Source: Chthoniobacterales bacterium (lineage in GTDB: Bacteria > Verrucomicrobiota > Verrucomicrobiia > Chthoniobacterales > UBA10450). From it: 44,168 nucleotides of DNA. This document shows, in pieces, positions 26,923-42,601 of this stretch (positions are counted from its first letter, which is position 1; each line of letters starts with the position of its first letter). Location of the stretch: assembly GCA_046262275.1 (NCBI GenBank), contig JBHENA010000001.1, positions 1-44,168 of the forward strand, written 5' to 3'. The notes below the pieces were generated by a model that searched no databases, was not told where the DNA came from, and saw only the letters and a program-made list of their open reading frames with translations. Both the position numbers and the translations under genes were made by a program.

Positions 26923-28083
26923 ATGATTGCGCGCAGCATGCCACCACAAGCGGCTACACCCGCGTCGGGCCCGAGTTCGTTCTGGAAGGAATCGCGCACC
27001 GACATCTGGCCGGTGCTTGTCGCGTTCGTCGCGTCGCGTGTGGTCATCGTGGGAGTGATGTTGCTGTCGCAGATGGTGATTCTGCGCGGCCGATTCTGGC
27101 GACCCGGCGGTCTGCTCGAAGTTCTGAGTAACTGGGACGGGGTCTACTATCTGCACATCGCCCGGCACGGTTACTTCTACATCCCCGAGATGTCGTCTAC
27201 GATCGTCTTCTTCCCGGTCTATCCGCTCGCCGTCCGCCTTTTCTCGTTTATCTTTCACGACTTCCGTGTCGCTGCCGTCGTGGTGGCGAACGTAGCGCTG
27301 CTGCTGGCGGCGCTGCTGCTCGAACGGCTGGTCAGGCAGGACTACGGCCGGCGGGTCAGCACGGCGGCGGTCGTGTTCCTCATGTTTAGCCCGGTGAGCT
27401 TTTTCTTCTCGAGCATGTACACCGAGTCGACCTTTCTCCTCTTTGCGGTAGCCGCTTTTTTTGCTGCAGTGAAGCGCCGGTGGCTGCTCGCATGCATCTG
27501 CGGATTGATCCTGTCGGCGACACGGAACATCGGATTTCTCATCGCCCTGCCGTTGTTCATCGAGCATCTGCGGCAAACGTGGAACCGCACGGCACCGATC
27601 TCGAGCCTGCTCCATCCACGCGTGTTGTTCATCGCGCTCGTTCCCGGCGGTCTCGGCTTGTATATGTTGTATGCGTACATCCGAGTGAATGACGCGCTAG
27701 CGTTCACGCGCTATCAGGCGCACTGGAATCGCAATCTCGTCTCGCCGCTGCATACGCTCACCCACTCCGGATGGCTGGAGCCGTTCTACTGGTGGCTCTT
27801 CAACGGAATTTTGGCGGTAGCTGCGATCCTGTGGGTGGCGGGCATCTTCTTCAGGGTGCGCGCGAGCTATCTGGTTTGGACAGCAATGCTGACGCTGAGC
27901 TACTTGTCCACGAACACGCTCGAAGCGCTGCCGCGATATCTCAGTATAGCGTTCCCATTGTTCATCGTTCTTGGGCTGATCAGCACGCGGTTATCAGCGG
28001 CTTACGAGTCTCTTCTGGCTGGATCGGTGGCGCTACTCACCATGTGCACAATCCTGTTCACGATGGGCTACTGGATGACCTGA
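26923..28083 (+). CDS. PIG-V/Gpi18-like GT-C mannosyltransferase-family membrane protein, paralogue A
   Basis: Motifs NWDGVYYLHIARHGY, FFPVYP, YTESTF and LEALPRYLSIAFPLF, in a multi-pass protein. The start is uncertain: ATG 26923 or 26938, or GTG 26854, which overlaps the previous stop. The upstream part of ORF 26032.. overlaps the preceding gene and I discard it. Confidence 0.8.
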   Translation: MIARSMPPQAATPASGPSSFWKESRTDIWPVLVAFVASRVVIVGVMLLSQMVILRGRFWRPGGLLEVLSNWDGVYYLHIARHGYFYIPEMSSTIVFFPVYPLAVRLFSFIFHDFRVAAVVVANVALLLAALLLERLVRQDYGRRVSTAAVVFLMFSPVSFFFSSMYTESTFLLFAVAAFFAAVKRRWLLACICGLILSATRNIGFLIALPLFIEHLRQTWNRTAPISSLLHPRVLFIALVPGGLGLYMLYAYIRVNDALAFTRYQAHWNRNLVSPLHTLTHSGWLEPFYWWLFNGILAVAAILWVAGIFFRVRASYLVWTAMLTLSYLSTNTLEALPRYLSIAFPLFIVLGLISTRLSAAYESLLAGSVALLTMCTILFTMGYWMT

Positions 28084-28685
28084 TGGTGTTGCATCCTGTA
28101 GACCACAAAGCTAAGCCATGCCACCGCAAGAGGTGCGCGGTCGCCGCCGCCTTTCTGTGCATGGCCGCGTGCCTCTCTGGCTGCGGCGAGGACCCTCCCG
28201 GCGATCCCCGGTCTTCTCTCACGCACGTGTACGTGTACGGCGAGACTGTGCGCTTCGGCCTGGGTGGCGATTCACATCGCTTTTGCACGACAGGCTGGAG
28301 TTTTAGCGAGCGCGGTTTCGTCTGGAACGACGGCCCGGCCGCTTCGCTGACGTTTTCGATCGCTCCCCCGCAGCCGCCGACAGATCTACTCCTCACGATA
28401 AAGCTGGGGCCGATGCTCGCGCCGCCGGATCTCGCTGTGCAGCCAGTTGATGTGTATGCGCATGGCGAGAAGGTGGCAAGTTGGCAAGTGACTGAAGAAG
28501 GCGTTTACACTGCCGAGATCCCGCAACACCTGACGATACGCGGCTATTTGAACATCGACCTGCACATGCCGAAAGCCATCGCGCCAGCGGAAGTGGGGCT
28601 CGGTTCAGATGCCCGACGACTTGCCATTCGTTGCTTCGAGTTGAAGCTCGATCTGGAGTCGAACGCGACCGCTCCCGCACCATAA
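28083..28685 (+). CDS. Lipoprotein, uncharacterised family, paralogue A
   Basis: The start ATG overlaps the PIG-V-A stop (TGATG). The signal peptide carries lipobox CLSGC. Shared domain blocks are GWSFSERGFVWNDG, QPVDVYAHGEKVASWQV and PKAIAPAEVGLGSDARRLAI. Confidence 0.7.
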   Translation: MVLHPVDHKAKPCHRKRCAVAAAFLCMAACLSGCGEDPPGDPRSSLTHVYVYGETVRFGLGGDSHRFCTTGWSFSERGFVWNDGPAASLTFSIAPPQPPTDLLLTIKLGPMLAPPDLAVQPVDVYAHGEKVASWQVTEEGVYTAEIPQHLTIRGYLNIDLHMPKAIAPAEVGLGSDARRLAIRCFELKLDLESNATAPAP

Positions 28686-28788
28686 GGCGAGCTGAGCCGC
28701 GCGGCGGCCGGACCGGAGGAGTCCGCAGCGTTTCGCTTGCGGGCGCCACTCGGTGTCCATTGCGGCGGTAGACGAGCTTCAGGTATCG

Positions 28789-29964
28789 CTACGGCTCCCC
28801 CATGTTCCCGAGAAACAGCTCCATCTCCACAAAGCAGGATGCGGCGGCGATGGATGCTACGACAACGCAGGCTAGCCTTGGCCTGTTCTTCAGCACATCG
28901 GCCATCATGATGTAGATGGGTAGGAGCACCGAGACATACCGTGTCCAGCCAAACGGACGATGCAGATAGACGATCAGTGAGAAATTGAACAAGGCGATAT
29001 AGAACATCTCCATGTAGCGCTTCTTGACCGCGCAATAGACGATCGCGATGATCGACAACCAGAAGGCGATCGTCTCAATGCGCCAGGAGAACGCCAGGTA
29101 TGTGAAGACCCACACCTTCGGGTTCGTTCCCGCCGCGACGTGCGTCTCAATAAGCTCCCGCACCCATCCAGCCCCGGCGGCGGACTGGCTCGTGCCCATC
29201 ACTGCCAGCGCGACGTGCCAGCTCGCAGCAACGAGAAGACCGCTCGAGGTAGCGAGCAATGGCCGCCAGTGAATTCGGCGGTCGCGGAGACAGTAGAACA
29301 CCTGCTCGACGAACAGTGCCGCGACCAGGAATGTTCCCATCATCCGCACCAACGCAGAGACTCCGGCAATAACGCTCCCCCACCCGATCCGCTCTTTCTG
29401 ACGCAGAACGAACGCAACCGCAGTTAGTGCTACGTAATAAGACTCTGAGTAGGCGGCGAAAAAGACGTTGTGCCCGGGATAAAAGAAGAGGAGGAACACT
29501 ACGAGCCATGGGGCTACTCCTTTCAGGCGGGCGTCATTCTTAACGTAGACAGTGAGCGCCCACGCTATCACCAAGTGGCTAATCAGGTTTAACACGACCG
29601 CGCTCTTTTCGAACGCATCTGGCGGACCGAACCGGAAGATCCCGGTCACTAGCCGCAGCGTGTATGGGTAAAGTGGCGGCCAGACGAAGAGGTCGAAGTG
29701 TTCGTAGAGCCGCCGGTAGATTGTGCCGTCCCAGCCTTGGTAGAGATAGGCAGGGAACCAGCGGAAGGGGCGCAGCAGTTCCGGAATCTTGCCTGCGCCA
29801 AACAGCGCGCAGAAAACGTATTGAATCGTATAGACGGCGGTGACCGTGACGACCCAGTCGGGCACCCGAAAAGGTGGTAGCCGCTCGCGCGTCTGATCTA
29901 ACAAAGCTTGTGCTTTCACATCGAAACGTCTGACCGCGTTCGCTTCACGCAGTCGACGCGCCAC
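28789..29964 (-). CDS. Divergent PIG-V-like GT-C membrane protein, paralogue E
   Basis: Motifs YQGWDGTIYRRLYEHF, WPPLYPY, AAYSESYY and GWTRYVSVLLPIY, in a multi-pass protein. It is the last gene of the minus-strand GT2 / STELLO-like / SDR operon. Confidence 0.7.
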   Translation of the reverse strand: MARRLREANAVRRFDVKAQALLDQTRERLPPFRVPDWVVTVTAVYTIQYVFCALFGAGKIPELLRPFRWFPAYLYQGWDGTIYRRLYEHFDLFVWPPLYPYTLRLVTGIFRFGPPDAFEKSAVVLNLISHLVIAWALTVYVKNDARLKGVAPWLVVFLLFFYPGHNVFFAAYSESYYVALTAVAFVLRQKERIGWGSVIAGVSALVRMMGTFLVAALFVEQVFYCLRDRRIHWRPLLATSSGLLVAASWHVALAVMGTSQSAAGAGWVRELIETHVAAGTNPKVWVFTYLAFSWRIETIAFWLSIIAIVYCAVKKRYMEMFYIALFNFSLIVYLHRPFGWTRYVSVLLPIYIMMADVLKNRPRLACVVVASIAAASCFVEMELFLGNMGEP

Positions 29965-30039: not shown

Positions 30040-31032
30040 CTACGCGCCGGCTACTCGGCTGCGGTAGTACTCGATCGCCCGTTCGATGCCCTCGCGGAAA
30101 TCGACCTTGTAGGTGAACCCGAGGCTCTTCTGCTTCGTCATATCGCCACCGCGCGCGAACACGCCTTCGGGTTTGTTTGACGTACCCACGACTTCCGGCG
30201 AGTAGCCGCACGCTTCAGCGGCCATTTTGGCGAATTGTTTGAAGCTGGTGAAGATGCCGGTCGACAAGTTGATGGCTTTCGCGTCGTCGATCTTTTCCAT
30301 CGTCTGCAACACGCCATCGATGCAGTCCTCGATATGGATGAAGTCGCGCATCTGATCGCCGGTGCCCCAGACGGTTAAGAGAGACTTGTCTTGGTTGCTT
30401 AAAGCCCGCTTACAAATGCTCGGGAAAGGATAAGTGTCGTCCTGGTCCTCGCCATAACCAGAGAACGGCCGATACACCACTGACTTCAACCCGTGCTTCT
30501 CGTATGCGAGCTGCGCGAGATATTCGTGCGTCAGCTTCGCCCAGCCGTAAGACATGTCCGGCATACCGATGTCATCGGTAAACTCAATCATCTCTTCTTT
30601 CAGCAGGATGTAGTCATCCTTCCGCTGATACCGGATCGGGTAAGCAGCGCTCGAACTGAAACAGATCGTTCGCTTCGGCTCCGCCCGGACCGCCCAAGCC
30701 CAGAATTCAGAGTCGATCGACAGATCCTCGGCGACCGCCAGCGGATTCTGTTCGATGACGAGACGGCCACCGACGACTGCCGCCAAATGGAAGGCAATAT
30801 CGAAATCCTTGTCGGCAACACGTTTGAAATAGTGCCGGCAATCTTCGCCGTGGAAGTGAAAGTTTTTGTAATCGCGCGGCTCGTAGAGCGGCCACTTGCT
30901 ATCCGGAGAAATCCCACCGGTGAGCGGCTCGATATTGTCCACGCAATGGACCTCGTCGCGCGCGTCGAGCAGACGCTTCACAAGGTGTCGGCCAACGAAA
31001 CCGGCGCCTCCCGTGACGAGTACTTTACGCAT
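30040..31032 (-). CDS. NAD-dependent sugar-nucleotide epimerase/dehydratase (extended SDR)
   Basis: MRKVLVTGGAGFVGRHL (the GxxGxxG motif), SSSAAY and the catalytic YGWAKL (YxxxK). It has an 8-nt overlap with the upstream gene. Confidence 0.85.
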   Translation of the reverse strand: MRKVLVTGGAGFVGRHLVKRLLDARDEVHCVDNIEPLTGGISPDSKWPLYEPRDYKNFHFHGEDCRHYFKRVADKDFDIAFHLAAVVGGRLVIEQNPLAVAEDLSIDSEFWAWAVRAEPKRTICFSSSAAYPIRYQRKDDYILLKEEMIEFTDDIGMPDMSYGWAKLTHEYLAQLAYEKHGLKSVVYRPFSGYGEDQDDTYPFPSICKRALSNQDKSLLTVWGTGDQMRDFIHIEDCIDGVLQTMEKIDDAKAINLSTGIFTSFKQFAKMAAEACGYSPEVVGTSNKPEGVFARGGDMTKQKSLGFTYKVDFREGIERAIEYYRSRVAGA

Positions 31033-31945
31033 TTGTGAAATGTTTCTGATAGAGCCGGAAGGCCTCTACTGAGCGCTCCGGCAGGTAGTTCAGAATCTTG
31101 TCGGGATCTTCGACGAGTTCCGCCACGATCTTGTGGTTGTGTTCATACCCGAGGTACTCGGCCTTCATGTCCTTGGTAAGATCATGCACGTTGCGCTGCT
31201 GATACACTGATGCTTTTCCGAACACGACCTTGCGGCCTTTCGCCTGCACGTAGAATGCTGCCCAGATGTCATCCATCCGGCCGACGTGCGGATAAAGGAA
31301 GTAATCTTTCAAGACGCTTCCGGCCAAAAAGGTATTCTGCGAGTTGAAGGGCGACATCTTGTTCGCCGCAATCGGGAAACAACTCTCGTCGAACTTGCAT
31401 TCGGGTGCGTGCTCCATCCGGCAGAACGCGTCGATGTCCGGATCGCCATCCCAGAAATCCGCCTGAACGTCAGGACGAATGGTCTTCTTGCTCTTCCGCG
31501 AGTAGTCGCGTTTCGACAGCATCGTGAGCGGAAACCCACGGTGCCACAGTTTCCCGTGGTTCGTCGCGCCGACAGGATCGAACACGGGAAGATCGGTCTC
31601 GTAATAGTTGGTCTCTACGTCTTTTCCGATCACGAGATCTTTTCCCCAGCCTTCGTAAGGAATGTTGTCGTCATCCACTGCGGCGACGATGTCCGCCCCC
31701 ATGTCATGCGCCCAGAGCAGGCCGAAGTTCCGCCGCTGGATGCAATTCCAGCCAATCGCATCGGAAAGCTCCTTGTCGTAATCCTCCTGCATTTCCGGGG
31801 TAACGTAGATTCCGCGGTCGAGCTGATAATCCGGGGGCGTCTTCTTATCGCCGATCACGACGAGATCCCAGTCCTCGAAGGTCTGGAAGCGCGCCATCGC
31901 GTCGGTGATGGGATTGATAGTGGTAGTGACGATGACTTTTTTCAT
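31025..31945 (-). CDS. STELLO/DUF288-like glycosyltransferase
   Basis: KKVIVTTTINPITDAMARF...DWDLVVIGDKKTPPDY...RRNFGLLWAHDMGADIVAAVDDDNIP follows the layout I recall for the DUF288 (STELLO) family. That layout is IV.S...PT, a K.W..VV.GD.KTP block, then a DDD acidic motif. The coding call is strong; the family call is moderate. Confidence 0.6.
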   Translation of the reverse strand: MKKVIVTTTINPITDAMARFQTFEDWDLVVIGDKKTPPDYQLDRGIYVTPEMQEDYDKELSDAIGWNCIQRRNFGLLWAHDMGADIVAAVDDDNIPYEGWGKDLVIGKDVETNYYETDLPVFDPVGATNHGKLWHRGFPLTMLSKRDYSRKSKKTIRPDVQADFWDGDPDIDAFCRMEHAPECKFDESCFPIAANKMSPFNSQNTFLAGSVLKDYFLYPHVGRMDDIWAAFYVQAKGRKVVFGKASVYQQRNVHDLTKDMKAEYLGYEHNHKIVAELVEDPDKILNYLPERSVEAFRLYQKHFTNA

Positions 31946-32664
31946 TTTAGGAGTTTTTCTTTCTGAGCGAATCGGGTTTTAAATCCGGGCGCGAAGTAGG
32001 CGAAGTTTCTGAGGAACGTATTTTGGGATTCGCCTTCGACTCGTGCTTTCCACGGCGTCGCAATCTCTCTAACGGGGACGCCGAGGCGAAGCGGTTTGAT
32101 CAACGTTTCGAAAAAGAATGGGTGTCGCAGCTCCTCCCAACGAATCGACTTCACAACGTGCGCGGGGAAGATCCGGAAGCCATACGTCATGTCGGTTAGT
32201 TTCACGCCGTAGAGCACTGAAAAAATCTTCTGGAACACGTAGTTCGAGACCAGCTTCACTTTGTTGTAGCCTTCGAAGCCTCCACCCTTAATCCACCGCG
32301 ACGCGGTGATGATGGCGTCCGGGGTTTTCTTTGCCTCTGCGATGAGTTCCTTGACCGTCGCGGGCTCGGTCTCTAGGTCGCTCGCCATCATCAGGACATG
32401 GCTGCCGCGCGCGAGATCGAAGGCTTCGCGCAGAGCACCGCCCACGAACGGCAGCTTCTGGAAGTGAAGCACGAACTTTTCCGGAGCGGAGTCCACATAC
32501 GACCGGCAGATCGCAACGCTTTCTGGAGTGGTGCGGTCGCAGACGCTGAGAATGTATTCGCACACGTCCGGGGCACACTCCTCTTCCACGATCCGGACGC
32601 TCTTGCGGAGCGACTCCGTCTCGTCCATCACGGGCAACAAAATGGTAGCTGAGGTAAAGGGCAA
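31942..32664 (-). CDS. GT2 polyprenyl-phosphate glycosyltransferase (Dpm1/Ppm1-like)
   Basis: ILLPVMDETESL, the acidic motif MMASDLE, and ASRWIKGGGFEGY...TDMTYGFRIF are typical of dolichol/polyprenol-phosphate sugar synthases. It has an ATGA overlap with the next gene. Confidence 0.8.
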   Translation of the reverse strand: MPFTSATILLPVMDETESLRKSVRIVEEECAPDVCEYILSVCDRTTPESVAICRSYVDSAPEKFVLHFQKLPFVGGALREAFDLARGSHVLMMASDLETEPATVKELIAEAKKTPDAIITASRWIKGGGFEGYNKVKLVSNYVFQKIFSVLYGVKLTDMTYGFRIFPAHVVKSIRWEELRHPFFFETLIKPLRLGVPVREIATPWKARVEGESQNTFLRNFAYFAPGFKTRFAQKEKLLK

Positions 32665-34837: not shown

Positions 34838-36033
34838 CGAAATCGCAAATCAGCGTGCCCGTAAGCACCGTTTCGATCCCGTTGATCAACTCGGAAGGCG
34901 TGGAGCCGCCGGTTCGAAGCGGCGGCACCGCCCGGCTCTTCGTGCGTGAGAGCATCCCGGTCGTCCTTGCCTTTTTGGCGTCGCGACTGCTCATCTACGG
35001 CCTTATTCTACTCTCGCGGCTCATCGTCCTTCCAAGCTCACGCAGTTTTGACGGCGGCTTTCTAACCGTTCTCGTGCAACGTGAGGGAGTATCCTACTTC
35101 GACATCGCGAGGACCGGCTATGGCGCAGCCGCGCACGCTGCCCCGACGCTTGATTTTTTTCCCCTTTACCCGCTGCTCGTCCGCGGTGTCTCGCTCGTGT
35201 TCCGAAACTTCGCTGTTGCGAGTGTGGTCACAGCGAACCTCGCGCTCTTCGTCGCAGGACTTTTGCTGCACCGACTTCTGCGCAAAGAATACACAAACCC
35301 AAAAATCGCGCGGGCGGGGGTGTGGTTCCTGATGTTCACCCCCGGTTGTCTGTTCTTCTCTGTTGGGTACTCCGAGTCGACCTTCCTCGCACTGGCGCTT
35401 GGCAGTTTGCTGGCGGCAATGAACAGGCAGTGGCTGCTCGCGTCTGTTTGTGGCATGGCTTTGGCCGCAACGCGCAGTTTCGGAGTGCTGATCCTGTTTC
35501 CGCTCGCAATCGAATTTCTGTGGTCGGATCGGCAAGCGCATCGTGCGATCGATGCGCTGCTCCGGCCGCGGAATCTGCTGCTTGCGCTCATCCCGACCGG
35601 CCTCGCCGCGGTGGTGGCATTCGGGTATGCGAAGTACCACAACCTGCTGGCTGCTTCTGAGGCGCTCAAGATTTGGGGACCCGGGTTCCGTTCCCCAGTG
35701 GCGGCTTTTGCGGATGGCCATCGCGGTGCACCGACGTTTGCCTGGCTTTTTGGTGGCGTCGTCGTCACCAGCACGCTTATGCTAGCTGCAGGATGTTGGC
35801 TGAAGATGCGAGCCAGCCATATCGCCTACGCTCTTATTTTGCTGGCAGTCTCATTATTCTTCAGCGGTTTCGAAGCGATTCCGCGGACGATCTGTTTGAT
35901 TTTTCCGCTTTACGCCGCCGCTGGTATGCTGTCCGTCCGGAGCAGGTGGTTGTATGAGCCGCTGCTGGCGGCGAGCGTGGTGGTGCTCAGCATGTTGACG
36001 GTGCTCTGGGCGAATGGGTATTGGATTCCTTAG
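34834..36033 (+). CDS. PIG-V/Gpi18-like GT-C membrane protein, paralogue C
   Basis: Motifs FFPLYP, YSESTF and FEAIPRT. The first-loop motif reads QREGVSYFDIARTGY, so the WD of the other paralogues is RE here. I trimmed the start to ATG 34834. Confidence 0.8.
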   Translation: MTKSQISVPVSTVSIPLINSEGVEPPVRSGGTARLFVRESIPVVLAFLASRLLIYGLILLSRLIVLPSSRSFDGGFLTVLVQREGVSYFDIARTGYGAAAHAAPTLDFFPLYPLLVRGVSLVFRNFAVASVVTANLALFVAGLLLHRLLRKEYTNPKIARAGVWFLMFTPGCLFFSVGYSESTFLALALGSLLAAMNRQWLLASVCGMALAATRSFGVLILFPLAIEFLWSDRQAHRAIDALLRPRNLLLALIPTGLAAVVAFGYAKYHNLLAASEALKIWGPGFRSPVAAFADGHRGAPTFAWLFGGVVVTSTLMLAAGCWLKMRASHIAYALILLAVSLFFSGFEAIPRTICLIFPLYAAAGMLSVRSRWLYEPLLAASVVVLSMLTVLWANGYWIP

Positions 36034-36107: not shown

Positions 36108-36803
36108 ATGGCAGATTTTGTCGAGGCCGATCTCCGGAAGCTGAGCGTCACGGCAGGGTTAGCCGTTACTGTTTGCGCAGTTGCAATCCCGCTCATGCTC
36201 AGCGGATGTGGCAAAGGGAATAGCAACACCGCCCAACGTGCGGAGCCGACGCCGGACTCGCCCGTCTCACGCCAATCTGCGGCCTCTGCGCAGACTCCCG
36301 CTGGTGCTTCGCCCTCGGCTGCACAGCAGCCGCAAGGCGGTCCGCAAACACGTGCAACAAGCGGTCAGCGGGTTGAATACGACACTTTGATCGAGTTCAC
36401 CGAGGGGGGGAACTCTGACGCGCTGAAGGTCTCCGGCTGGAGCATTGCGGAAGCGGGATTTACGTGGACGGAAGGAACAGCGGCGATGCTGTCGCTGCGC
36501 GTGCCGCCCGCCGACAGCCCAGTGACCTTAAAAATGAAAGCTGCGGGAAGCATCAAGGAACCCGAAGTGCCGTTTCAGCCAGTTGAGATTGACATCAACG
36601 ACGAGAAGATCGCGGACCTGCAGGTAGGAAACACTGCGGAGTTCAGTGTCCCCGTTCCCGAGCACCTAACGAAAAGCGGCGGCGTCCTGACGATCGCTCT
36701 CCGGACACCGAAAGCGGCTTCGCCGAAGGATCTCGGGCTGAACGAAGATGCGCGCGTGCTGGGGATTCGGGTGTTCAACATCGCACTCTCGACGGTTCAG
36801 TAG
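36108..36803 (+). CDS. Lipoprotein, uncharacterised family, paralogue C (with a long low-complexity linker)
   Basis: Lipobox MLSGC. A ~50-aa Pro/Ser/Ala/Gln/Thr-rich linker follows, then GWSIAEAGFTWTEG, QPVEIDINDEKIADLQV and PKAASPKDLGLNEDARVLGI. I trimmed the start to ATG 36108. Confidence 0.7.
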   Translation: MADFVEADLRKLSVTAGLAVTVCAVAIPLMLSGCGKGNSNTAQRAEPTPDSPVSRQSAASAQTPAGASPSAAQQPQGGPQTRATSGQRVEYDTLIEFTEGGNSDALKVSGWSIAEAGFTWTEGTAAMLSLRVPPADSPVTLKMKAAGSIKEPEVPFQPVEIDINDEKIADLQVGNTAEFSVPVPEHLTKSGGVLTIALRTPKAASPKDLGLNEDARVLGIRVFNIALSTVQ

Positions 36804-36957: not shown

Positions 36958-37530
36958 ATGGATCGGAGCCGGAAAAAGACTGGCGATGAACCTCGACTGA
37001 CTACGGCGGGCGCGCGGTTGTTCGCCGCCACAAGCGTCGTGTTGGTTCTTTCGGCCTGCGATCGCACGACCTTCGCCACGCGGCCGGAAAGCTCCCGAGG
37101 CGCAGATTACGTCTACGGCACCGTCATCGGTTTTGGTACAGCGGACGGGTTCAAGGTCTCGGGCTGGAGCCGACCCGAACAGCAATCCACTTGGAGTGAG
37201 GGCAACAAGGCCGTGCTGGCGTTAAACTTGCCGCCGAGCGAAAACGGACGGGTCGATCTCGTCGCGACCATGTCCGCCTACACTCACCCGCCTGCGCTGA
37301 CGTCGCAGCCGGTGGAAGTCTACGCGAACGAACAGAAAATTGCTGACTGGGTGGTGAGCGATCTTGCAGAATTTAGCGTCGGCCTCCCGGACACTGTCGC
37401 AAGAAAAGGCGGGACTGTGCTTCTCTCACTTCAGCTTCCAAAGGCAGCTTCCCCAAAAAGCTTTGGTGACGGCGAAGACTCGCGCATCCTTGGGATCTGC
37501 ATGCGCAATTTCCGGCTGGTGCGTCGCTAG
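36958..37530 (+). CDS. Lipoprotein, uncharacterised family, paralogue C2 (no GT-C immediately upstream)
   Basis: Lipobox VLSAC. Blocks GWSRPEQQSTWSEG, QPVEVYANEQKIADWVV and PKAASPKSFGDGEDSRILGI. Confidence 0.75.
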   Translation: MDRSRKKTGDEPRLTTAGARLFAATSVVLVLSACDRTTFATRPESSRGADYVYGTVIGFGTADGFKVSGWSRPEQQSTWSEGNKAVLALNLPPSENGRVDLVATMSAYTHPPALTSQPVEVYANEQKIADWVVSDLAEFSVGLPDTVARKGGTVLLSLQLPKAASPKSFGDGEDSRILGICMRNFRLVRR

Positions 37531-37562: not shown

Positions 37563-38765
37563 ATGAAGAAGCCTCGGGTCGCGTTCATCGTGCAGCGTTG
37601 CGGCGTCGAAGTTAATGGCGGCGCTGAGGCGCACTGTCTGCAGATCGCGCAGCGGATGGCGCGCCACTGGGACACTGAAGTCCTGACCACCTGCGCATTG
37701 GATTACATGACGTGGGAGAACTCGTATCCCGCCGGCCTCGAAGAAATCGGAGGGACGATAGTGCGGCGGTTTCCGGTGGATCAACCGCGGGACGTCACGC
37801 ACTTCGACGAGCTTTCCGCCAGGCTCCGCGGACGGGGGGTAGCGGCAACACAGTCCGAGCAGGAAGAATGGATGCAGGCGCAAGGGCCAATCAGCTCGGG
37901 TTTGCTGGACTATTTAGGCGCACATCGCGGTGAATACGACGCCTTCATTTTCTTCGGCTATCTTTACGCGACGACGTATTTCGGTTTGCCCCTCGTTCAG
38001 GAGAAGGCATTCCTTGCGCCGCTCGCGCACGACGAATGGACGATTTACCTCAGCATGTGGGACAGCTTCTTCGCTCGTCCGCGCGCGCTGATTTTCAACA
38101 CTTCCTTCGAGAAGGAATTCCTCCGGCGTCGCCTCCCCTCGCTCTCTCTCGAAGGGCCAGTGGTCGCCGTTGGAATCGAGCCGCCCGCTGACTTTGCGCC
38201 GGAACTATTTCGAGCGCGCTACGGACTTGATGATCCGTTTCTGCTCTACGTCGGGCGAATCGACGAATCGAAAGGCTGCCGTTGGCTGATCGAAAACTTT
38301 GTTCGCGCGCGGAACGCCGGGCGGATTCAGCACAAGCTGGTGCTTGCTGGGACTGAAGTGATGCCGATTCCGTTCCACGACGACGTCATTCACCTCGGGT
38401 TCATCGATGAGGCGCAGAAATGGAGTGCGATGGCCGCATGTGATTGGCTCGTAATGCCTTCGCCGCACGAGAGCTTGTCGATGGTTCTGCTGGAAGCTTG
38501 GGGCGCCGGGCGACCGGCATTAGTGACTGGCGATGCAGAGGTTCTCGTCGGGCAGTGTCGGCGTGCGAACGCGGGGCTTTGGTATCGAAACTCGGAGGAA
38601 TTTGAGGCTATTCTGCGTACGATTGACGGCTCGACCAAGCAGCGGCTCGGCGCGCGGGGGCGGCAGTTTGTCGCGACGCATTATTCGTGGGAGCGCGTCG
38701 TGAACAACTACGCGGATCTATTCGAGGAGCAGGAAGCTATCCCCGTCTATAATCGCCGCGGCTGA
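37563..38765 (+). CDS. GT4-family glycosyltransferase
   Basis: PRVAFIVQRCGVEVNGGAEAHCLQIAQRMARHWDTEVLTT is paralogous to the N-terminal module of the 21629 gene. Also LLYVGRIDESKG and the EX7E-type block SPHESLSMVLLEAWGAGRPALV. Confidence 0.85.
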   Translation: MKKPRVAFIVQRCGVEVNGGAEAHCLQIAQRMARHWDTEVLTTCALDYMTWENSYPAGLEEIGGTIVRRFPVDQPRDVTHFDELSARLRGRGVAATQSEQEEWMQAQGPISSGLLDYLGAHRGEYDAFIFFGYLYATTYFGLPLVQEKAFLAPLAHDEWTIYLSMWDSFFARPRALIFNTSFEKEFLRRRLPSLSLEGPVVAVGIEPPADFAPELFRARYGLDDPFLLYVGRIDESKGCRWLIENFVRARNAGRIQHKLVLAGTEVMPIPFHDDVIHLGFIDEAQKWSAMAACDWLVMPSPHESLSMVLLEAWGAGRPALVTGDAEVLVGQCRRANAGLWYRNSEEFEAILRTIDGSTKQRLGARGRQFVATHYSWERVVNNYADLFEEQEAIPVYNRRG

Positions 38766-39504
38766 GGTGTTTCTCCAGCCAGATGTAGAGGCAGATAAAC
38801 AGGTAGCGGCTGCCCATTTCCTTGATCTTCAGTTTCGGCGCACCGGTCACTCGATTGCGGTAGGTATTCGGCATGCTGGTCCAGCGATAGCCACGGACGA
38901 TCGCCTTCAGCGGTAGCTCGACGGTGAGATTGAAATGCGGCGAGATGAGCGGTCGGCAGCCGTCGATGGTGGTGCGACGATAGGCTTTAAACGCGTTCGT
39001 TAGATCGTTATGGCGAATGCCGAACAACAGTTGGAGGAACAGGTTTGCCATGCGATTCAGCAGGAGCTTGAAGCGAGGGTAATCGATGACACCGCCCCCT
39101 TTCATGAAGCGGCTGCCGAAGACGCAATCGTAGCCTTCGTTCAGGATTCGCCAGAAACGCACGACGTCGCGCGGATCGTCCGACTCGTCAGCCATCATGA
39201 TGACGACGGCATCGCCAGTCATGTGGTTCAGACCCCAAATGATTGCGCGCCCGAAACCGTGCGCATCGGTGTTTTGCGTCGGAGCAAGTGTCGGAACGCG
39301 GTCACGAAGCTCTTCTATGATGGCCCAGGTGCGATCGCTGCTTCCGTCATCCACAACGACAATCTCATGCGGCACTTTCTGCAGCCGCAGTTCGGTGTGG
39401 AGATGTTCTACCGTTGACGCGATGCAGCCTTCTTCATCGCGTGCCGGTATCACGATGGACAACAGCGAAAGCGGCGGAGCGCTCCGATCGGGCCGCTGCT
39501 TCAT
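38737..39504 (-). CDS. GT2 polyprenyl-phosphate glycosyltransferase (Dpm1/ArnC/GtrB-like) with a C-terminal TM segment
   Basis: LSIVIPARDEE, IVVVDDGSSD, MMADESDDP, CVFGSRF and the C-terminal hydrophobic stretch YLFICLYIWL. I trimmed the start to ATG 39504, which overlaps the upstream stop (ATGA). The 3' end overlaps the convergent GT4 gene by 29 nt. Confidence 0.85.
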   Translation of the reverse strand: MKQRPDRSAPPLSLLSIVIPARDEEGCIASTVEHLHTELRLQKVPHEIVVVDDGSSDRTWAIIEELRDRVPTLAPTQNTDAHGFGRAIIWGLNHMTGDAVVIMMADESDDPRDVVRFWRILNEGYDCVFGSRFMKGGGVIDYPRFKLLLNRMANLFLQLLFGIRHNDLTNAFKAYRRTTIDGCRPLISPHFNLTVELPLKAIVRGYRWTSMPNTYRNRVTGAPKLKIKEMGSRYLFICLYIWLEKHLSRGDYRRG

Positions 39505-40571
39505 AGCGGAGAGGAAAGATCGAGCCACTCCGGATGCTGCTCCGCATGCACAGCGATCTCGTCGAGGATAGCGTCAAGCGACATCGTCGGCCGCCAATCC
39601 CACTCTGCTTCGGCGCGTCGCGAATCCATCACGACCCACGGGAGATCGAAAGGTCTTGGCGCCGGATCAGCGCCGATGCTGTGCGCTCCGAAACGCGCCG
39701 CGCACCAGTCGCTCAGCTGCGCGAGTGACATCGCGTTTGTAGCGCGGCCGCCGAAGTTCAAAATCCGTGGCTTTGCCGCGAACGGCTCCCGCATTTGCCT
39801 TAGCAACAGCGGAACGAGGTCCCGCGGATGCAGCGCGTCGCGCACCTGGAATCCTCGGCCGCCGAAGCCGATGTATTTCAACGGGCGTCGACGCAGGTAA
39901 GCGTTGATCCAGAAGGCGAAAATACCCTGGTCAGCGCGACCAAACTGACCCGCGCCGGCCAGCACCCCGCAGCGGTTAACCCAAACTGGAAAATCGAAGG
40001 TTTCGCCGTACTCGAGCGCGAGAGCCTCAGACGCGAGTTTGGTGCTGCCGTAGAGCGAAACCGGCGCTGCGGTGGAGAATTCTTCCCGGATGCCGTGAGA
40101 TGAAATGCCCGGAGGCAGACTGCTGTTAGTTACCGGCTGAAAAGCGCCGTGCAGTTCTTCAACATGCAATGTCGCAAGGGGCGCAATGGCGTAAACGCGG
40201 CTCGTACTGAGCAGAATGCAACCGGCACGATCACGCTTTGCGAGCTCGAGAATATTGACGGTCCCATAGAGATTGTGCTCGATGAGCTGCCTACTACTCG
40301 TGAGGCCGTCGACGCCCGCGAGCACGCTCGGATTCGCCGCGGCATCAACGATCCAATCGACGTGCGGTAGCGTTTCCATGTCACTCGCCGCTCGGATGTC
40401 GGCGTGGAAAAGCTTCACGCCGCGTTTCCGCAGCGGCTCCCGCGTGAGTTCGCTACCGGGCCGGATAAAGTTGTCGAACCCTACAATCTCGATGGTCGAA
40501 TCAGCGTCCAGAAGCGCGTGTGCGACCGTGCTTCCGACAAAACCGCAAATACCCGAAACAAGCAGCTTCAC
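39501..40571 (-). CDS. NAD-dependent sugar-nucleotide epimerase (extended SDR, CDP-paratose/tyvelose 2-epimerase-like)
   Basis: KLLVSGICGFVGS, STSRVY and YGSTKL (YxxxK). The block ADQGIFAFWINAYLRRRPLKYIGFGGRGFQVRDALHPRDL resembles the RfbE-type epimerase block as I recall it. Start is GTG 40571 (MKLLVSG) or TTG 40580. Confidence 0.8.
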   Translation of the reverse strand: MKLLVSGICGFVGSTVAHALLDADSTIEIVGFDNFIRPGSELTREPLRKRGVKLFHADIRAASDMETLPHVDWIVDAAANPSVLAGVDGLTSSRQLIEHNLYGTVNILELAKRDRAGCILLSTSRVYAIAPLATLHVEELHGAFQPVTNSSLPPGISSHGIREEFSTAAPVSLYGSTKLASEALALEYGETFDFPVWVNRCGVLAGAGQFGRADQGIFAFWINAYLRRRPLKYIGFGGRGFQVRDALHPRDLVPLLLRQMREPFAAKPRILNFGGRATNAMSLAQLSDWCAARFGAHSIGADPAPRPFDLPWVVMDSRRAEAEWDWRPTMSLDAILDEIAVHAEQHPEWLDLSSPL

Positions 40572-40774
40572 GCGAAACAAAGAGCAGGGATAGAAGAAGG
40601 GAGGTTCTGCACCGCTCCGATCTATATGACCACGCTAAACTTTCCACCCATTTCGCTGCTGCCCGTCGCCTTGACAGAATTCGCCAGCGCCAGCAGCGTC
40701 ACCGCTGATCCAAATGGCCGGGGTCAACGTGCTCGCGCATCGGCTAGCGATCGGACGGCACACCTGCCACGATT

Positions 40775-42019
40775 ATGGAGATCCAATATCTATCTCAACC
40801 TGACGCCGAACAACGGCCGCAGCCGGGCAGCACTCGGGCTCGTTTCGACGCGTTTCTTCGCTCCTGGATGTTTCGCGACGTGCTGATCCCGTTCATCACC
40901 GCCCGCGCGGTGCTTACATTGATCGGTTGGCTTGCGCTGCAGTATTTTCATAATCTTCCCGCCAATCCCGGCAGCTGGGAGCTGAACCCCGCCGGCCAAA
41001 TCACGACCGTCTCTCACCTCTCGATGACGAGCCATCCATTGCTGAACATGTATTCGCGGTGGGATGCAGGCTGGTATCATTCCATCGCGAAGCAGGGATA
41101 CAGCTTCAAGCCGGGTCGCCAATCGAATACGGCTTTCTTCCCGCTCTACCCAGCGCTGATGCGGGCCGTCCACGTGTTCATTCCATCGGATACCGATTCG
41201 TCTTGGTTCCTCGCCGGAGTTATCGCGTCTAACTGCGCCTTCCTCGTCGCGCTCTGCTATCTCCTGCTGCTTTTGCGGATGGACTTCGATCAGGAAACGT
41301 CAGCCCGGGCCGTACTCTATCTGCTGGTCTTCCCGACCGCATTTTACTTCTTCGCGGTGTATGGCGAATCGGTCTCGCTCGCCACCACGGTCGCGGCATT
41401 TTATTACGCGCGGAAAAACAACTGGTGGCTCGCTGGCGCGTTTGCCGGAGCTGCGACACTTACGCGTTCGCCCGGGGTTCTCCTCGGCGCGCCCCTTTTG
41501 GCCGAATACCTTGGGCAACGCGAGTTCCGGTGGCGCAGCATCCGCGCTGATATTCTTTCTCTCGGGCTTATCCCCGCGTGTCTCATCGCGCACATGCTTT
41601 TCCTGCGCTGGAGCGTGGGCAACGTGACCGCCATCCAAGACGCGCAGGCTGCGTGGGGCAGTCAATGGGGCAGGTTCTCCGCGCCTTGGGCCCCGCTGTT
41701 CCGCTTGCGTCCTCATCCGTTTACGTATTTCGATTTCATAAACGTCGGGTTCGCTGGCGTGATGTTAGTGCTGGTCGTCCTCGCCGCCGCGCGACTTCGA
41801 CTGAGCTACGGCGTGTATGCGGTCACCGGTTTCTGGTTCATCACTTCATGGGGCACGTATGAATCAATGCCGCGATACGTGATCGTGCTATTCCCGGCGT
41901 TCCTCATCCTCGCGAAATGGGGCCACAATCGCGCATTCGATCGCGCGTACGTCGCCGTCGCCAGCGCGTTGGCCGCGTTGTTCATGACGCGTTTCACACT
42001 TTGGCTTTGGGTCGCGTGA
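40775..42019 (+). CDS. PIG-V/Gpi18-like GT-C membrane protein, paralogue D
   Basis: Motifs RWDAGWYHSIAKQGY, FFPLYP, YGESVS and YESMPRYVIVLFPAF, in a multi-pass protein. Confidence 0.8.
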   Translation: MEIQYLSQPDAEQRPQPGSTRARFDAFLRSWMFRDVLIPFITARAVLTLIGWLALQYFHNLPANPGSWELNPAGQITTVSHLSMTSHPLLNMYSRWDAGWYHSIAKQGYSFKPGRQSNTAFFPLYPALMRAVHVFIPSDTDSSWFLAGVIASNCAFLVALCYLLLLLRMDFDQETSARAVLYLLVFPTAFYFFAVYGESVSLATTVAAFYYARKNNWWLAGAFAGAATLTRSPGVLLGAPLLAEYLGQREFRWRSIRADILSLGLIPACLIAHMLFLRWSVGNVTAIQDAQAAWGSQWGRFSAPWAPLFRLRPHPFTYFDFINVGFAGVMLVLVVLAAARLRLSYGVYAVTGFWFITSWGTYESMPRYVIVLFPAFLILAKWGHNRAFDRAYVAVASALAALFMTRFTLWLWVA

Positions 42020-42034
42020 TTCGTCCGTAAACGC

Positions 42035-42601
42035 GTGATCGTTAAATTGCGAAAACCAATCTGGTGCAGCGCTGCTGCATATTGTGCTGCGTTCATGTTG
42101 ATCGGCTGTGACGGGCCGCACAACGCTGACGACTATGCGCTGGACACTGTCGTGAACTTCGGCGCGCAAGGCGACGCAGAGCGCTTTCGTGGGGAGGGGT
42201 GGAGTCACGCCGAGCCGGCATTCACCTGGGCTCTCGGGCCGCGCGCTAGATTGCATATGAACGTCCGCTGGAACAGCCGTCCGCTCGGGCTGCGCATGCG
42301 GCTGGCAGGTATGCATCACTTACCGGACCTGCCGTTCCAAACGGTCGAGGTCGCAGCGAATGACATTGTTGTTGCGACATGGCAGGTCGCGAAAACCGGC
42401 GATTTTACCGCCGTCATTCCGCCGGATGTGCTGGCAAAAAGACGCGTCCTTTACCTGGAGCTCAGGTTGGCAAACGCGACTTCGCCGAAAGCTCTCGGCT
42501 TGACCGCGGATTCGCGGCCCCTCGGCGTCTCTTGTTTCGAAATGCAGCTCACTAAAGCGGTCGCGCCGCAGGATATGTGGCCGCAGCTCGCCGCGCGCTG
42601 A
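42035..42601 (+). CDS. Lipoprotein, uncharacterised family, paralogue D
   Basis: GTG start 15 nt after the PIG-V-D stop. Lipobox MLIGC. Blocks GWSHAEPAFTWALG, QTVEVAANDIVVATWQV and ATSPKALGLTADSRPLGV. Confidence 0.75.
   Translation: MIVKLRKPIWCSAAAYCAAFMLIGCDGPHNADDYALDTVVNFGAQGDAERFRGEGWSHAEPAFTWALGPRARLHMNVRWNSRPLGLRMRLAGMHHLPDLPFQTVEVAANDIVVATWQVAKTGDFTAVIPPDVLAKRRVLYLELRLANATSPKALGLTADSRPLGVSCFEMQLTKAVAPQDMWPQLAAR

What the first reader, a model, noticed from the sequence alone, without database searches (positions are those of the whole stretch)
28083..42601. A five-member lipoprotein family with a conserved ~140-aa domain I cannot assign to any known family
The members are 28083-28685, 34265-34837, 36108-36803, 36958-37530 and 42035-42601. 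All begin with a signal peptide and lipobox (LSGC, VAGC, LSGC, LSAC, LIGC). All then share the same ordered blocks. Block 1 is an aromatic residue followed by I/V-x-F-G. Block 2 is GWS-x-x-E-x-x-(F/W/S)-(T/V)-W-x-x-G-x-x-A-x-L. Block 3 is P-(P/E/D)-L/V-x-x-Q-(P/T)-V-(D/Q/E)-V. Block 4 is (K/I)-(I/V)-A-x-W-x-V. Block 5 is an (F/Y)-(S/T)-(V/A)-x-(I/V/L)-P stretch. Block 6 is PKA-x-(S/A)-P-x-x-x-G-x-x-x-D-(A/S)-R-x-L-(G/A)-(I/V/L). The alternating pattern suggests a beta-sandwich, which could bind carbohydrate or an acceptor. The paralogues have diverged strongly outside these blocks, as expected if each has co-evolved with its neighbouring GT-C.
Basis: seen in the sequence. Interest (0 to 1): 0.8.

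Follow-up and report, generated by a model that had tools for sequence, protein, structure and literature searches.

The report
Lipoprotein partners for membrane glycosyltransferases
Five related small lipoproteins in a sugar-polymer gene cluster each carry one copy of a widespread but unstudied beta-sandwich domain (a distant relative of Pfam DUF7024), which elsewhere is fused to membrane enzymes that decorate cell-envelope glycans, so here it is probably a detachable helper subunit for the neighbouring membrane glycosyltransferases.

Summary
Five + strand genes encode paralogues with a signal peptide, a lipobox Cys, a linker and one ~143-aa domain. All ten pairwise BLASTP E-values are at most 4e-14, and the window holds no sixth copy.

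The claim that the domain fits no known family is only partly right. The five proteins give no Pfam or NCBIfam hit. A profile built from them alone, however, hits segments that pass Pfam's threshold for PF22895 (DUF7024), with E 2e-28 and 1e-17. That domain is catalogued but has no known function, and no indexed paper mentions it.

An exhaustive profile search finds 9,413 cluster representatives. The family is therefore large, in bacteria and at least one archaeal genus. The domain occurs as 1-3-domain lipoproteins. It also occurs as 1-6 copies at the C-terminus of GT-C enzymes (PMT_2, DUF6311) and of 5-TM sulfatase-fold (LtaS/OpgB-like) enzymes.

The AlphaFold model is confident (domain pLDDT 88-98). 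It is a jelly-roll sandwich that resembles CBM36/35/22 and the BcsB carbohydrate-binding domains only at fold level.

Four of the five genes directly follow minimal, all-helical PIG-V-like GT-Cs, and the same pairing recurs in other Verrucomicrobiota and Acidobacteriota.

Best reading: a periplasmic accessory module acting in trans on these GT-Cs, probably binding the acceptor glycan. Co-evolution of each pair was not demonstrated (Mantel p = 0.15).

The parts
28083..28685 (+). Lpp1. A 200-aa lipoprotein with lipobox LSGC (Cys34), a 13-aa linker and a DUF7024-like beta-sandwich domain at about aa 48-192.
   Evidence: AF2 model with domain pLDDT 88-98. The ATG overlaps the GT-C#1 stop as TGATG.
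34265..34837 (+). Lpp2. A 190-aa lipoprotein with lipobox VAGC (Cys26) and one domain copy.
   Evidence: Its stop TGA overlaps the in-frame ATG at 34834 of GT-C#3 as ATGA.
36108..36803 (+). Lpp3. A 231-aa lipoprotein with lipobox LSGC (Cys34), a ~55-aa linker rich in Ser, Pro, Ala and Gln, and one domain copy.
   Evidence: The public gene call has the same 231 aa (P0001).
36958..37530 (+). Lpp4. A 190-aa lipoprotein with lipobox LSAC (Cys34, Asp at +2) and one domain copy. It is the only member with no GT-C directly upstream; it follows Lpp3.
42035..42601 (+). Lpp5. A 188-aa lipoprotein with a GTG start, lipobox LIGC (Cys25, Asp at +2) and one domain copy.
   Evidence: It begins 15 nt after the GT-C#5 stop.
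26938..28083 (+). GT-C#1. A 381-aa all-helical PIG-V/Gpi18-like (PF04188) membrane glycosyltransferase with no extramembrane domain.
   Evidence: Pfam E 7e-11. Public call P0193 of 381 aa, with closest relatives in Chthoniobacterales. AF2 pLDDT 93.8. Every significant Foldseek match (all 20 with E <= 0.001) is a GT-C-fold chain: STT3/AglB, ArnT, PIGU and ALG9; PimE, ALG12, PglB and AftA/B follow at weaker E.
32809..34146 (+). GT-C#2, a PIG-V-like paralogue. The true start is uncertain; the conserved core begins near residue 60 of this ORF.
34834..36033 (+). GT-C#3, a PIG-V-like paralogue.
40775..42019 (+). GT-C#5. It matches PMT_2 and PIG-V and is the most divergent paralogue (28-30% identity to the other three).
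31942..32664 (-). Small GT2 of 240 aa, divergent from GT-C#2. Its best, sub-threshold resemblances are to polyprenyl/dolichyl-phosphate sugar synthases (AglJ, dolichyl-P hexose transferase, PgfS).
38737..39528 (-). Small GT2 of 263 aa. It resembles PgfS, AglJ, ArnC and PpgS below threshold. It lies in the minus-strand unit that diverges from GT-C#5.
39501..40580 (-). SDR-family NDP-sugar epimerase/dehydratase, paired with the GT2 at 38737-39528.
30040..31032 (-). SDR-family NDP-sugar epimerase/reductase in the minus-strand unit with the GT2 at 31942-32664.
28789..29964 (-). Polytopic membrane protein of 391 aa. It gives a weak hit to the AZOBR_p60025 family (cell-surface glycopolymer formation). 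It may be a further GT-C-like enzyme.
25211..26857 (+). Polytopic membrane protein of 548 aa (about 10 predicted TM helices), with no family hit.
37563..38765 (+). GT4 glycosyltransferase directly downstream of Lpp4.

Best explanation
Each of the five genes encodes a periplasmic lipoprotein. It has a lipid anchor on the lipobox Cys, a flexible linker of 12-55 residues, and one ~143-aa jelly-roll beta-sandwich domain. The domain belongs to the DUF7024 superfamily.

In other organisms this domain sits, in 1-6 tandem copies, at the extracytoplasmic C-terminus of membrane transferases that act on envelope glycans on the outer face of the cytoplasmic membrane. These are GT-C enzymes, which use lipid-linked sugar donors, and LtaS/OpgB-type sulfatase-fold enzymes. 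In this locus the catalytic partner is a minimal 380-410-aa PIG-V-like GT-C that has no soluble domain of its own. The domain is instead supplied in trans as a lipoprotein encoded immediately downstream, and is probably co-translated, given the TGATG and ATGA overlaps.

Proposed pathway:
1. SDR epimerases and small GT2 enzymes make polyprenyl-phosphate sugars on the cytoplasmic face.
2. After flipping, each GT-C transfers its sugar to a growing or finished envelope glycan.
3. The tethered beta-sandwich binds that acceptor glycan, or holds and stabilises the GT-C, near the active site.

What is shown: paralogy, signal peptide and lipobox features, fold, superfamily link, the fusion architectures, and gene adjacency. 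What is inferred: lipidation, physical or functional coupling to the GT-C, glycan binding, and the identity of donor and acceptor.
For: - Paralogy and lipobox features.
- Confident beta-sandwich model.
- Best structural matches are carbohydrate-binding modules (CBM36, CBM35, CBM22, CBM51), the carbohydrate-binding domains of BcsB and Cry-toxin domain III.
- The same domain is fused C-terminally to PMT_2 GT-Cs (P0049, P0190, L033), to DUF6311 membrane proteins (L061, L038) and to many 5-TM sulfatase-fold proteins. Profile-profile probability is 100%, E 5e-46.
- A PIG-V-like GT-C lies directly upstream of four of the five window genes. The same is seen in L004, L005, L018 (twice), L022 (twice), L023 and L025.
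- 20 of 37 lipoprotein-type homologues have a polytopic or PIG-V-like neighbour within 400 bp, against 13% for random intervals in the same loci (p = 5e-9).
- The GT-C#1 model is all-helical with no soluble domain, and matches only GT-C folds.
- Start/stop overlaps.
- The small GT2s resemble polyprenyl-P-sugar synthases.
- Precedents from the literature. The C-terminal CBM of GT136 ORF12 binds the unmodified O-polysaccharide, and the EmbC and AftD CBMs bind acceptor (PMC11127046). PIGM needs PIGX, and yeast Gpi18 (the PIG-V homologue) needs Pga1 (PMC7125958).
Against: - No direct evidence of glycan binding or of a complex with the GT-C.
- Structural similarity to CBMs is only fold-level (TM about 0.54 normalised to CBM36, 6-17% identity), and jelly rolls serve many functions.
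- The mirror-tree test for pairwise co-evolution is not significant.
- Lpp4 has no GT-C of its own.
- About half of the lipoprotein-type homologues elsewhere are not immediately next to a polytopic membrane protein.
- No flippase gene was recognised in the cluster.
- The GT2 assignments are all below curated thresholds.
- The binomial test counts paralogues and related genomes as independent observations.
Confidence: 0.55

Rival explanations
1. The lipoproteins are obligate structural or stabilising subunits of the minimal PIG-V-like GT-Cs, analogous to PIGX/Pbn1 for PIGM/Gpi14 and Pga1 for Gpi18. The beta-sandwich packs on the periplasmic face of the enzyme and shapes or stabilises the active site, rather than acting as a lectin.
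For: - The GT-Cs are PIG-V/Gpi18-like.
- Yeast Gpi18 needs the small membrane-anchored partner Pga1, and PIGX stabilises PIGM (PMC7125958).
- Pbn1 contacts Gpi14 through a two-beta-sheet luminal lobe, and the complex resembles PIGU-PIGT (PMC12653191).
- PIGU is among the best structural matches of GT-C#1.
- Tight gene coupling.
Against: - No sequence or profile link to PIG-X, and no hit to any GPI family.
- Pbn1/PIGX is not among the listed (top-50) structural matches.
- The same domain is fused to unrelated catalytic scaffolds (sulfatase fold, WcbI) and occurs in 2-6 tandem copies. That pattern fits a ligand-binding module better than a dedicated structural subunit.
- No co-evolution signal.
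Confidence: 0.2
2. The lipoproteins are the acceptor substrates of the neighbouring GT-Cs, which would glycosylate them in the periplasm as PMT-type enzymes do for actinobacterial lipoproteins.
For: - GT-C#5 also matches PMT_2.
- Lpp3 has a long linker rich in Ser, Thr, Pro and Ala.
- Substrate genes sometimes sit next to their glycosyltransferase (general knowledge).
Against: - Conservation lies in the folded domain, not in the linkers, which are short and poor in Ser/Thr in four of the five.
- The domain is covalently fused to GT-C and sulfatase-fold enzymes in thousands of proteins, which is not expected of a substrate.
- The cluster contains GT4 enzymes and nucleotide-sugar enzymes typical of polysaccharide synthesis.
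Confidence: 0.08
3. The domain is a generic periplasmic spacer or envelope-tethering module, with no specific role in the GT-C reaction. Its adjacency to GT-C genes would only reflect shared membership of envelope-biogenesis islands.
For: - About half of the homologues lack an immediately adjacent polytopic partner.
- Fold matches include non-lectin jelly rolls such as Cry-toxin domain III and phage tail-fibre domains.
Against: - The gene order GT-C then lipoprotein is conserved, with overlapping or near-abutting stop and start codons, across Verrucomicrobiota and Acidobacteriota.
- The domain is repeatedly fused to enzymes that act on envelope glycans.
- Strongly conserved polar and aromatic positions (GW, E, W, D-x-R) suggest a functional site.
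Confidence: 0.12

Closest known systems
Pfam PF22895 (DUF7024), a catalogued domain of unknown function
   Same: It is the same ~145-aa domain. The window-only profile and Pfam's model hit the same segments of P0092 (724-864 vs 728-863) and P0190 (594-738 vs 600-734). Seven of 46 lipoprotein-family members give sub-threshold DUF7024 hits, and it is the only family that recurs in more than three members.
   Different: None of the five window proteins is detected by the Pfam model even at E <= 1. Only 5 of 56 sampled fusion-protein domains are detected at E <= 0.01, so the current model covers a minority of the superfamily. No function is assigned, and no indexed paper mentions it.
C-terminal carbohydrate-binding modules of GT-C enzymes: GT136 ORF12 of Citrobacter youngae, and mycobacterial EmbC and AftD
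   Same: These are extracytoplasmic beta-rich modules of about 150 aa attached to a GT-C that uses a polyprenyl-phosphate sugar. They bind the acceptor polysaccharide (PMC11127046). Natural GT-C fusions of the present domain have the same layout; for example, the 652-aa L007 protein has the domain starting at residue 507.
   Different: In the window the module is a separate lipoprotein, not a fused domain. Homology to the ORF12, EmbC or AftD modules was not established. The ORF12 sequence could not be obtained. EmbC and AftD do not appear among the listed (top-50) structural matches of the domain model.
CAZy carbohydrate-binding modules with the galactose-binding-like jelly roll (CBM36, CBM35, CBM6, CBM22) and the BcsB carbohydrate-binding domains
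   Same: Same overall fold. Foldseek gives E 2.5e-5 to 1e-3 at probability 1.0, and a TM-score of 0.54-0.57 normalised to CBM36. BcsB is also a membrane-anchored periplasmic partner of a membrane glycosyltransferase.
   Different: Sequence identity is 6-17%. There is no Pfam CBM hit and no sequence-level PDB hit. The ligand is unknown.
Auxiliary subunits of eukaryotic GPI mannosyltransferases: PIGX/Pbn1 with PIGM/Gpi14, and Pga1 with Gpi18 (the PIG-V homologue)
   Same: A small, membrane-anchored, beta-rich protein on the non-cytoplasmic face is paired with a minimal GT-C of the PIG-V/PIG-M type (PMC7125958 and PMC12653191).
   Different: No detectable sequence or structural homology was found. 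The anchor is an N-terminal lipid rather than a C-terminal transmembrane helix. The bacterial domain is also fused to non-GT-C enzymes.
Three-component periplasmic glycan-modification systems (GtrA/GtrB/GtrC type; pentofuranose systems of PMC11127046)
   Same: The cluster combines small GT2 enzymes that resemble polyprenyl-P-sugar synthases, nucleotide-sugar epimerases and GT-C enzymes.
   Different: No flippase was recognised in the window. There are four paralogous PIG-V-like GT-Cs, two further polytopic proteins of unassigned family and five lipoproteins, not one of each component. A lipoprotein component is not part of the described systems.

Membership tests
Pfam PF22895 DUF7024 | Match to the Pfam HMM at or above the gathering score (24.4 bits). 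| tested here: not met
   hmmscan of the five proteins gives no DUF7024 hit at E <= 1. Seven of 46 relatives hit only below threshold, best E 1.5e-4.
Pfam PF22895 DUF7024 | Homology, at superfamily level, to segments that do pass the Pfam gathering score. | tested here: met
   An HMM built from the five window proteins alone hits P0092 724-864 (i-E 2.3e-28) and P0190 594-738 (i-E 1.2e-17), with Z = 1e6. Pfam DUF7024 scores 35.0 and 34.3 bits on the same segments. hhalign of A2 against A6 gives probability 100%, E 5e-46.
Bacterial lipoproteins (Lgt/LspA substrates) | N-terminal signal peptide with a positive n-region and a hydrophobic h-region, followed by a lipobox [LVI][ASTVI][GAS]C. | tested here: met
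   All five have 2-6 Lys/Arg, a hydrophobic stretch of about 10 residues, and LSGC, VAGC, LSGC, LSAC or LIGC. The Cys column is at least 90% conserved in 46 relatives. No dedicated predictor (SignalP, LipoP) was available.
Bacterial lipoproteins (Lgt/LspA substrates) | Actual diacylglyceryl modification and signal peptidase II cleavage. | not testable with these tools
   This needs biochemistry, such as globomycin sensitivity, palmitate labelling or mass spectrometry.
Carbohydrate-binding modules (CBM6/35/36-like jelly roll) | Beta-jelly-roll sandwich fold. | tested here: met
   The AF2 model has 10 strands and domain pLDDT 88-98. Top Foldseek matches are CBM36, CBM35, CBM22, CBM51 and BcsB.
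Carbohydrate-binding modules (CBM6/35/36-like jelly roll) | Sequence membership of a CAZy or Pfam CBM family. | tested here: not met
   No CBM family appears. Identity to structural matches is 6-17%.
Carbohydrate-binding modules (CBM6/35/36-like jelly roll) | Demonstrated carbohydrate binding. | not testable with these tools
   This needs binding assays with purified domain.
GT-C accessory subunits (PIGX/Pbn1, Pga1) | Sequence or structural homology to PIG-X/Pbn1. | tested here: not met
   No PIG-X family hit. Not among the listed (top-50) Foldseek matches.
GT-C accessory subunits (PIGX/Pbn1, Pga1) | Stable complex with, and requirement for, the cognate GT-C. | not testable with these tools
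   Only genomic linkage is shown. No multimer prediction was available.
GT136-type C-terminal CBM (C. youngae ORF12, residues 503-652) | Sequence homology to the ORF12 CBM. | not tested
   The ORF12 sequence is not in the text or supplement (an image only). The accessions listed in the supplement are not in the local collections.
Three-component periplasmic glycosylation system | Polyprenyl-phosphate sugar synthase (GT2), plus a flippase, plus a GT-C. | tested here: inconclusive
   GT-C is present. Two small GT2s resemble AglJ, ArnC, PgfS and PpgS only below the curated cut-offs. No flippase was recognised; no dedicated GtrA search was run, and the gaps between the called genes are too short to hold another gene.

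The most novel reading that the evidence does not exclude
Bacteria have a modular 'split GT-C' system. Minimal PIG-V-like glycosyltransferases would obtain acceptor recognition, or stability, from a cognate lipid-anchored DUF7024-type beta-sandwich encoded immediately downstream. Tandem duplication of the enzyme-lipoprotein cassette (four cassettes here) would then diversify the decoration of an envelope glycan. This would be a bacterial counterpart of the two-subunit eukaryotic GPI mannosyltransferases (Gpi18-Pga1, PIGM-PIGX). It would also assign a first function, acceptor-glycan binding for lipid-linked-donor transferases, to a superfamily of more than 9,000 sequence clusters.
Probability: 0.3. 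Interest if true: 0.65.

Novelty: new variant of a known kind. Interest (0 to 1): 0.5.

Why it matters
GT-C enzymes and LtaS-type transferases build or decorate lipopolysaccharide, teichoic acids, arabinans, osmoregulated glucans and glycoproteins. How they recognise their acceptors is poorly understood.

This analysis ties together three things:
- an unstudied domain that is very widespread (9,413 cluster representatives);
- two classes of such enzymes, through natural fusions;
- a free-standing lipoprotein form encoded next to minimal GT-Cs.

That yields a concrete and testable function for DUF7024-like domains: extracytoplasmic acceptor binding or enzyme support. It also offers a simple experimental handle, because the lipoproteins are small, soluble once the anchor is removed, and predicted with high confidence.

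The analysis also shows that the current Pfam model misses most of the family, and that public gene calls cut off the signal peptides of three of the five proteins.

Tried and rejected
- Single-sequence Pfam and NCBIfam scans of the five proteins gave nothing usable.
- Sequence searches of the PDB with the family profiles A2 and A6 gave only chance-level hits.
- The word-indexed homologue search returned only 45 proteins and made the family look tiny. The exhaustive profile search corrected this.
A closer 8-sequence alignment worked.
- The mirror-tree test of GT-C versus lipoprotein distances was not significant. I therefore do not endorse pairwise co-evolution.
- I tried to test homology with the experimentally characterised GT136 ORF12 CBM and failed. 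The alignment figure is an image. The listed accessions BK026208, CP099034 and CP032687 are not in the local collections. A tblastn of one domain against all PLSDB plasmids found nothing.
- Foldseek against viral structures gave only generic lectin and tail-fibre jelly rolls.
- The 'glycosylated substrate' and 'PIG-X homologue' readings were considered and ranked lower, for the reasons given under the rival explanations.
- No paper mentions DUF7024 or 'Gpi18-like mannosyltransferase'.

Full report

The five ORFs are present on the + strand at the stated coordinates. They are 28083-28685, 34265-34837, 36108-36803, 36958-37530 and 42035-42601.

Each starts with Lys/Arg-containing residues and a hydrophobic stretch, followed by a lipobox: LSGC, VAGC, LSGC, LSAC or LIGC. 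The Cys is at residue 34, 26, 34, 34 and 25 respectively.

After a linker of about 12-55 residues, all five share a ~143-aa domain. It has 21 invariant columns and 31-38% identity to member 1. All ten pairwise BLASTP comparisons are significant, with E from 2e-29 to 4e-14 for a nominal database of 1e8 residues. A family HMM finds these five copies and no others in the six-frame ORFs of the window.

Examples are ANA for PKA in member 5, and L for W in block 4 of member 3.

One caveat is that public gene calls for members 1, 2 and 4 start inside or after the signal peptide. The longer starts are supported by the conserved lipobox Cys in 46 relatives. They are also supported by the TGATG overlap between the stop of the upstream GT-C and the ATG of member 1.

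**2. What the domain is**

Single-sequence scans find no family in Pfam or NCBIfam. Profiles find no relative among PDB sequences. The word-indexed search returned only 45 relatives, all labelled hypothetical, from Verrucomicrobiota and Terriglobales metagenome-assembled genomes.

The exhaustive profile search changed the picture. It found 9,413 cluster representatives at E <= 1e-3, 3,904 at E <= 1e-10 and 442 at E <= 1e-30. Mapping the domain on the best 192 proteins, together with Pfam scans, shows five architectures:

- Lipoproteins of about 190 aa with one domain, as in the window.
- Lipoproteins of 330-470 aa with two or three domains.
- Proteins of 840-1,150 aa with five N-terminal TM helices, a Sulfatase (PF00884) domain of the LtaS/OpgB type, and two to four C-terminal copies. 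This is the commonest form among the best hits.
- Polytopic GT-C proteins with one to four C-terminal copies. These include PMT_2 PF13231 in P0049, P0190 and L033, and DUF6311 PF19830 in L061 and L038.
- Soluble fusions, for example with WcbI (L043).

Two of these proteins give Pfam hits to PF22895 (DUF7024) above the gathering score. Both hits fall on exactly the segments found by my profile: P0092 at 728-863 with 35.0 bits, and P0190 at 600-734 with 34.3 bits. A profile built from the five window proteins alone hits those segments with E 2.3e-28 and 1.2e-17. hhalign of the window alignment against 56 fusion-protein domains gives probability 100%, E 5e-46.

So the window family is a divergent branch of the DUF7024 superfamily. 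Pfam's model detects only a minority of that superfamily: 7 of 46 lipoproteins below threshold, and 5 of 56 fusion domains at E <= 0.01. No indexed paper mentions DUF7024.

**3. Fold**

An AlphaFold2 model of member 1, built with the 46-sequence alignment, is confident. Mean pLDDT is 87.5, and block means across the domain are 88-98. It shows a signal helix, a low-confidence linker and a ten-strand beta-sandwich.

Foldseek against the PDB returns carbohydrate-binding modules (CBM36, CBM35, CBM22, CBM51), the carbohydrate-binding domains of the cellulose-synthase subunit BcsB, and Cry-toxin domain III. E-values run from 2.5e-5 to 1e-3. The TM-score is 0.54-0.57 when normalised to the small CBM36 targets, and sequence identity is only 6-17%. 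The viral library gives generic lectin and tail-fibre jelly rolls.

Binding itself is not shown.

**4. Genomic context**

The window from about 21.6 to 42.6 kb is a glycan-biosynthesis cluster. It contains:

- GT4 enzymes.
- Three SDR nucleotide-sugar epimerases or dehydratases.
- Two small GT2 enzymes. Their best, sub-threshold resemblances are to polyprenyl/dolichyl-phosphate sugar synthases (AglJ, dolichyl-P hexose transferase, PgfS, ArnC, PpgS).
- Four paralogous PIG-V/Gpi18-like GT-Cs.
- Two further polytopic membrane proteins.

Members 1, 2, 3 and 5 lie directly downstream of a PIG-V-like GT-C. Member 4 follows member 3.

Start and stop codons overlap twice. The GT-C#1 stop overlaps the Lpp1 start as TGATG. 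The Lpp2 stop overlaps an in-frame ATG of GT-C#3 as ATGA.

GT-C#1 models with pLDDT 93.8 and pTM 0.92 as an all-helical 381-aa protein with no soluble domain. All of its significant structural matches are GT-C-fold chains: STT3/AglB, ArnT, PIGU and ALG9 at E <= 0.001, then ALG12, PglB, AftA/B, PimE and Emb at weaker E. Its closest sequence relatives are from Chthoniobacterales, so the contig is probably verrucomicrobial.

The order GT-C then lipoprotein recurs in L004, L005, L018 (twice), L022 (twice), L023 and L025. These loci come from Chthoniobacterales, another Verrucomicrobia genome, Bryobacterales, and one unassigned metagenome contig (L004).

Across the window and loci L001-L025, 20 of 37 lipoprotein-type genes have a PIG-V-like or other polytopic membrane protein within 400 bp. 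The figure for random intervals in the same loci is 13% (binomial p = 5e-9). The observations are not phylogenetically independent, and the TM predictor is crude.

Other homologues sit in glycan clusters next to different large membrane proteins.

**5. Mechanism**

The natural fusions act as a Rosetta stone. The domain accompanies membrane enzymes whose active sites face the periplasm or cell exterior, and which act on envelope glycans.

In the window the catalytic proteins are minimal GT-Cs, and the domain is supplied separately with a lipid anchor and a flexible tether. The most economical reading is a trans-acting accessory module that binds the acceptor glycan or supports the enzyme.

Precedents support this reading:

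- The C-terminal CBM of GT136 ORF12 binds the unmodified O-polysaccharide, although it is dispensable when the enzyme is over-expressed (PMC11127046).
- The EmbC and AftD CBMs bind arabinan acceptors (same paper).
- Eukaryotic PIG-V-type and PIG-M-type GT-Cs work with small membrane-anchored partners. Gpi18 requires Pga1, PIGX stabilises PIGM, and Pbn1 contacts Gpi14 through a two-beta-sheet lobe (PMC7125958 and PMC12653191).

I put about 0.55 on the accessory-module reading as a whole, with acceptor binding the more likely sub-mechanism. A purely structural PIG-X-like role gets about 0.2, a generic spacer about 0.12, and a glycosylated substrate about 0.08.

The claim that each paralogue co-evolved with its own GT-C is not demonstrated. 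For 11 pairs the Mantel correlation of identity matrices is r = 0.26, p = 0.15. The best partners of w1 and w2 are nevertheless consistent: for GT-C and lipoprotein respectively, w1 matches L018a at 56% and 47%, and w2 matches L025 at 59% and 45%.

**6. Novelty and verdict**

The domain is not absent from the databases. It is a sub-threshold relative of a catalogued DUF, and the family is large.

What appears new is threefold:

- The recognition that DUF7024-like domains are shared C-terminal modules of both GT-C and LtaS-type enzymes.
- The free-standing lipoprotein form.
- Its cassette-like pairing with minimal PIG-V-like GT-Cs, duplicated four times in this locus.

I rate this a new variant of a known kind, namely CBM-like accessory modules of lipid-linked-donor transferases. 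Interest is moderate at 0.5.

The key untested points are the physical coupling to the GT-C, the ligand, the lipidation, and whether the domain is homologous to the characterised GT136 CBM.

Noticed in passing
window 31025-31945 (-): A 306-aa protein with no Pfam or NCBIfam hit. It matches PDB chains deposited as 'Transglycosylse' (7yua, 7xpr, 8hl8, 7xpu) at E about 9e-14 over residues 49-266. It lies between an SDR epimerase and a small GT2, so it may make or remodel the sugar donor.
   Followed up: partly
window 28081-28085 and 34834-34837: Overlapping stop and start codons suggest translational coupling. The GT-C#1 stop and Lpp1 start form TGATG. The Lpp2 stop and an in-frame ATG of GT-C#3 form ATGA.
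   Followed up: yes
window 28083-28685, 34265-34837, 36958-37530: The gene calls stored in the public protein collection are truncated to 150, 148 and 163 aa. They start inside or after the signal peptide, so the lipoprotein nature is hidden in the databases. Member 5 did not appear among the 45 hits at all.
   Followed up: yes
window 26938-28083, 32809-34146, 34834-36033, 40775-42019: The four PIG-V-like GT-Cs are themselves paralogues. #1 to #3 are 40-49% identical, and #5 is only 28-30% identical to the others. In #3 the conserved WD(G/A) motif in the first periplasmic loop reads REG.
   Followed up: partly
window 3390-5492 (+) and 15495-18044 (-): Two large proteins carry PATR (passenger-associated transport) repeats. 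They lie outside the glycan cluster.
   Followed up: no
window 11424-14591 (+): A 1,055-aa outer-membrane barrel protein with an N-terminal CarboxypepD_reg domain, of TonB-dependent-receptor type.
   Followed up: no
L034 3551-5743 and L036 6225-8417 (Methanoculleus): Archaeal 730-aa proteins with five TM helices, a Sulfatase domain and one C-terminal copy of the domain. The superfamily therefore reaches at least one methanogen genus.
   Followed up: partly
L043 9684-11003 (-) and similar ~437-440-aa ORFs in L040, L042, L045, L060, L066 and L076 (Acetobacteraceae/Rhodopila): In L043 a soluble protein has the domain at the N-terminus fused to a WcbI-like capsule-biosynthesis domain. The same loci also encode 370-440-aa proteins with the domain at the C-terminus and no recognised N-terminal family.
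   Followed up: partly
L007 9705-11663 and 12666-14732: A verrucomicrobial locus holds a free lipoprotein copy (7824-8429) and, a few kb away, two polytopic proteins of 652 and 688 aa with one C-terminal copy and no Pfam hit. The 652-aa protein has the same length and domain position as GT136 ORF12 of C. youngae (CBM at 503-652 in PMC11127046), but homology was not tested.
   Followed up: partly
window 28789-29964 (-): A 391-aa polytopic protein with a weak hit to the NCBIfam AZOBR_p60025 family (cell-surface glycopolymer formation) and a WDG...Y motif like that of the PIG-V-like GT-Cs. It may be a fifth GT-C, which could pair with the orphan Lpp4.
   Followed up: no
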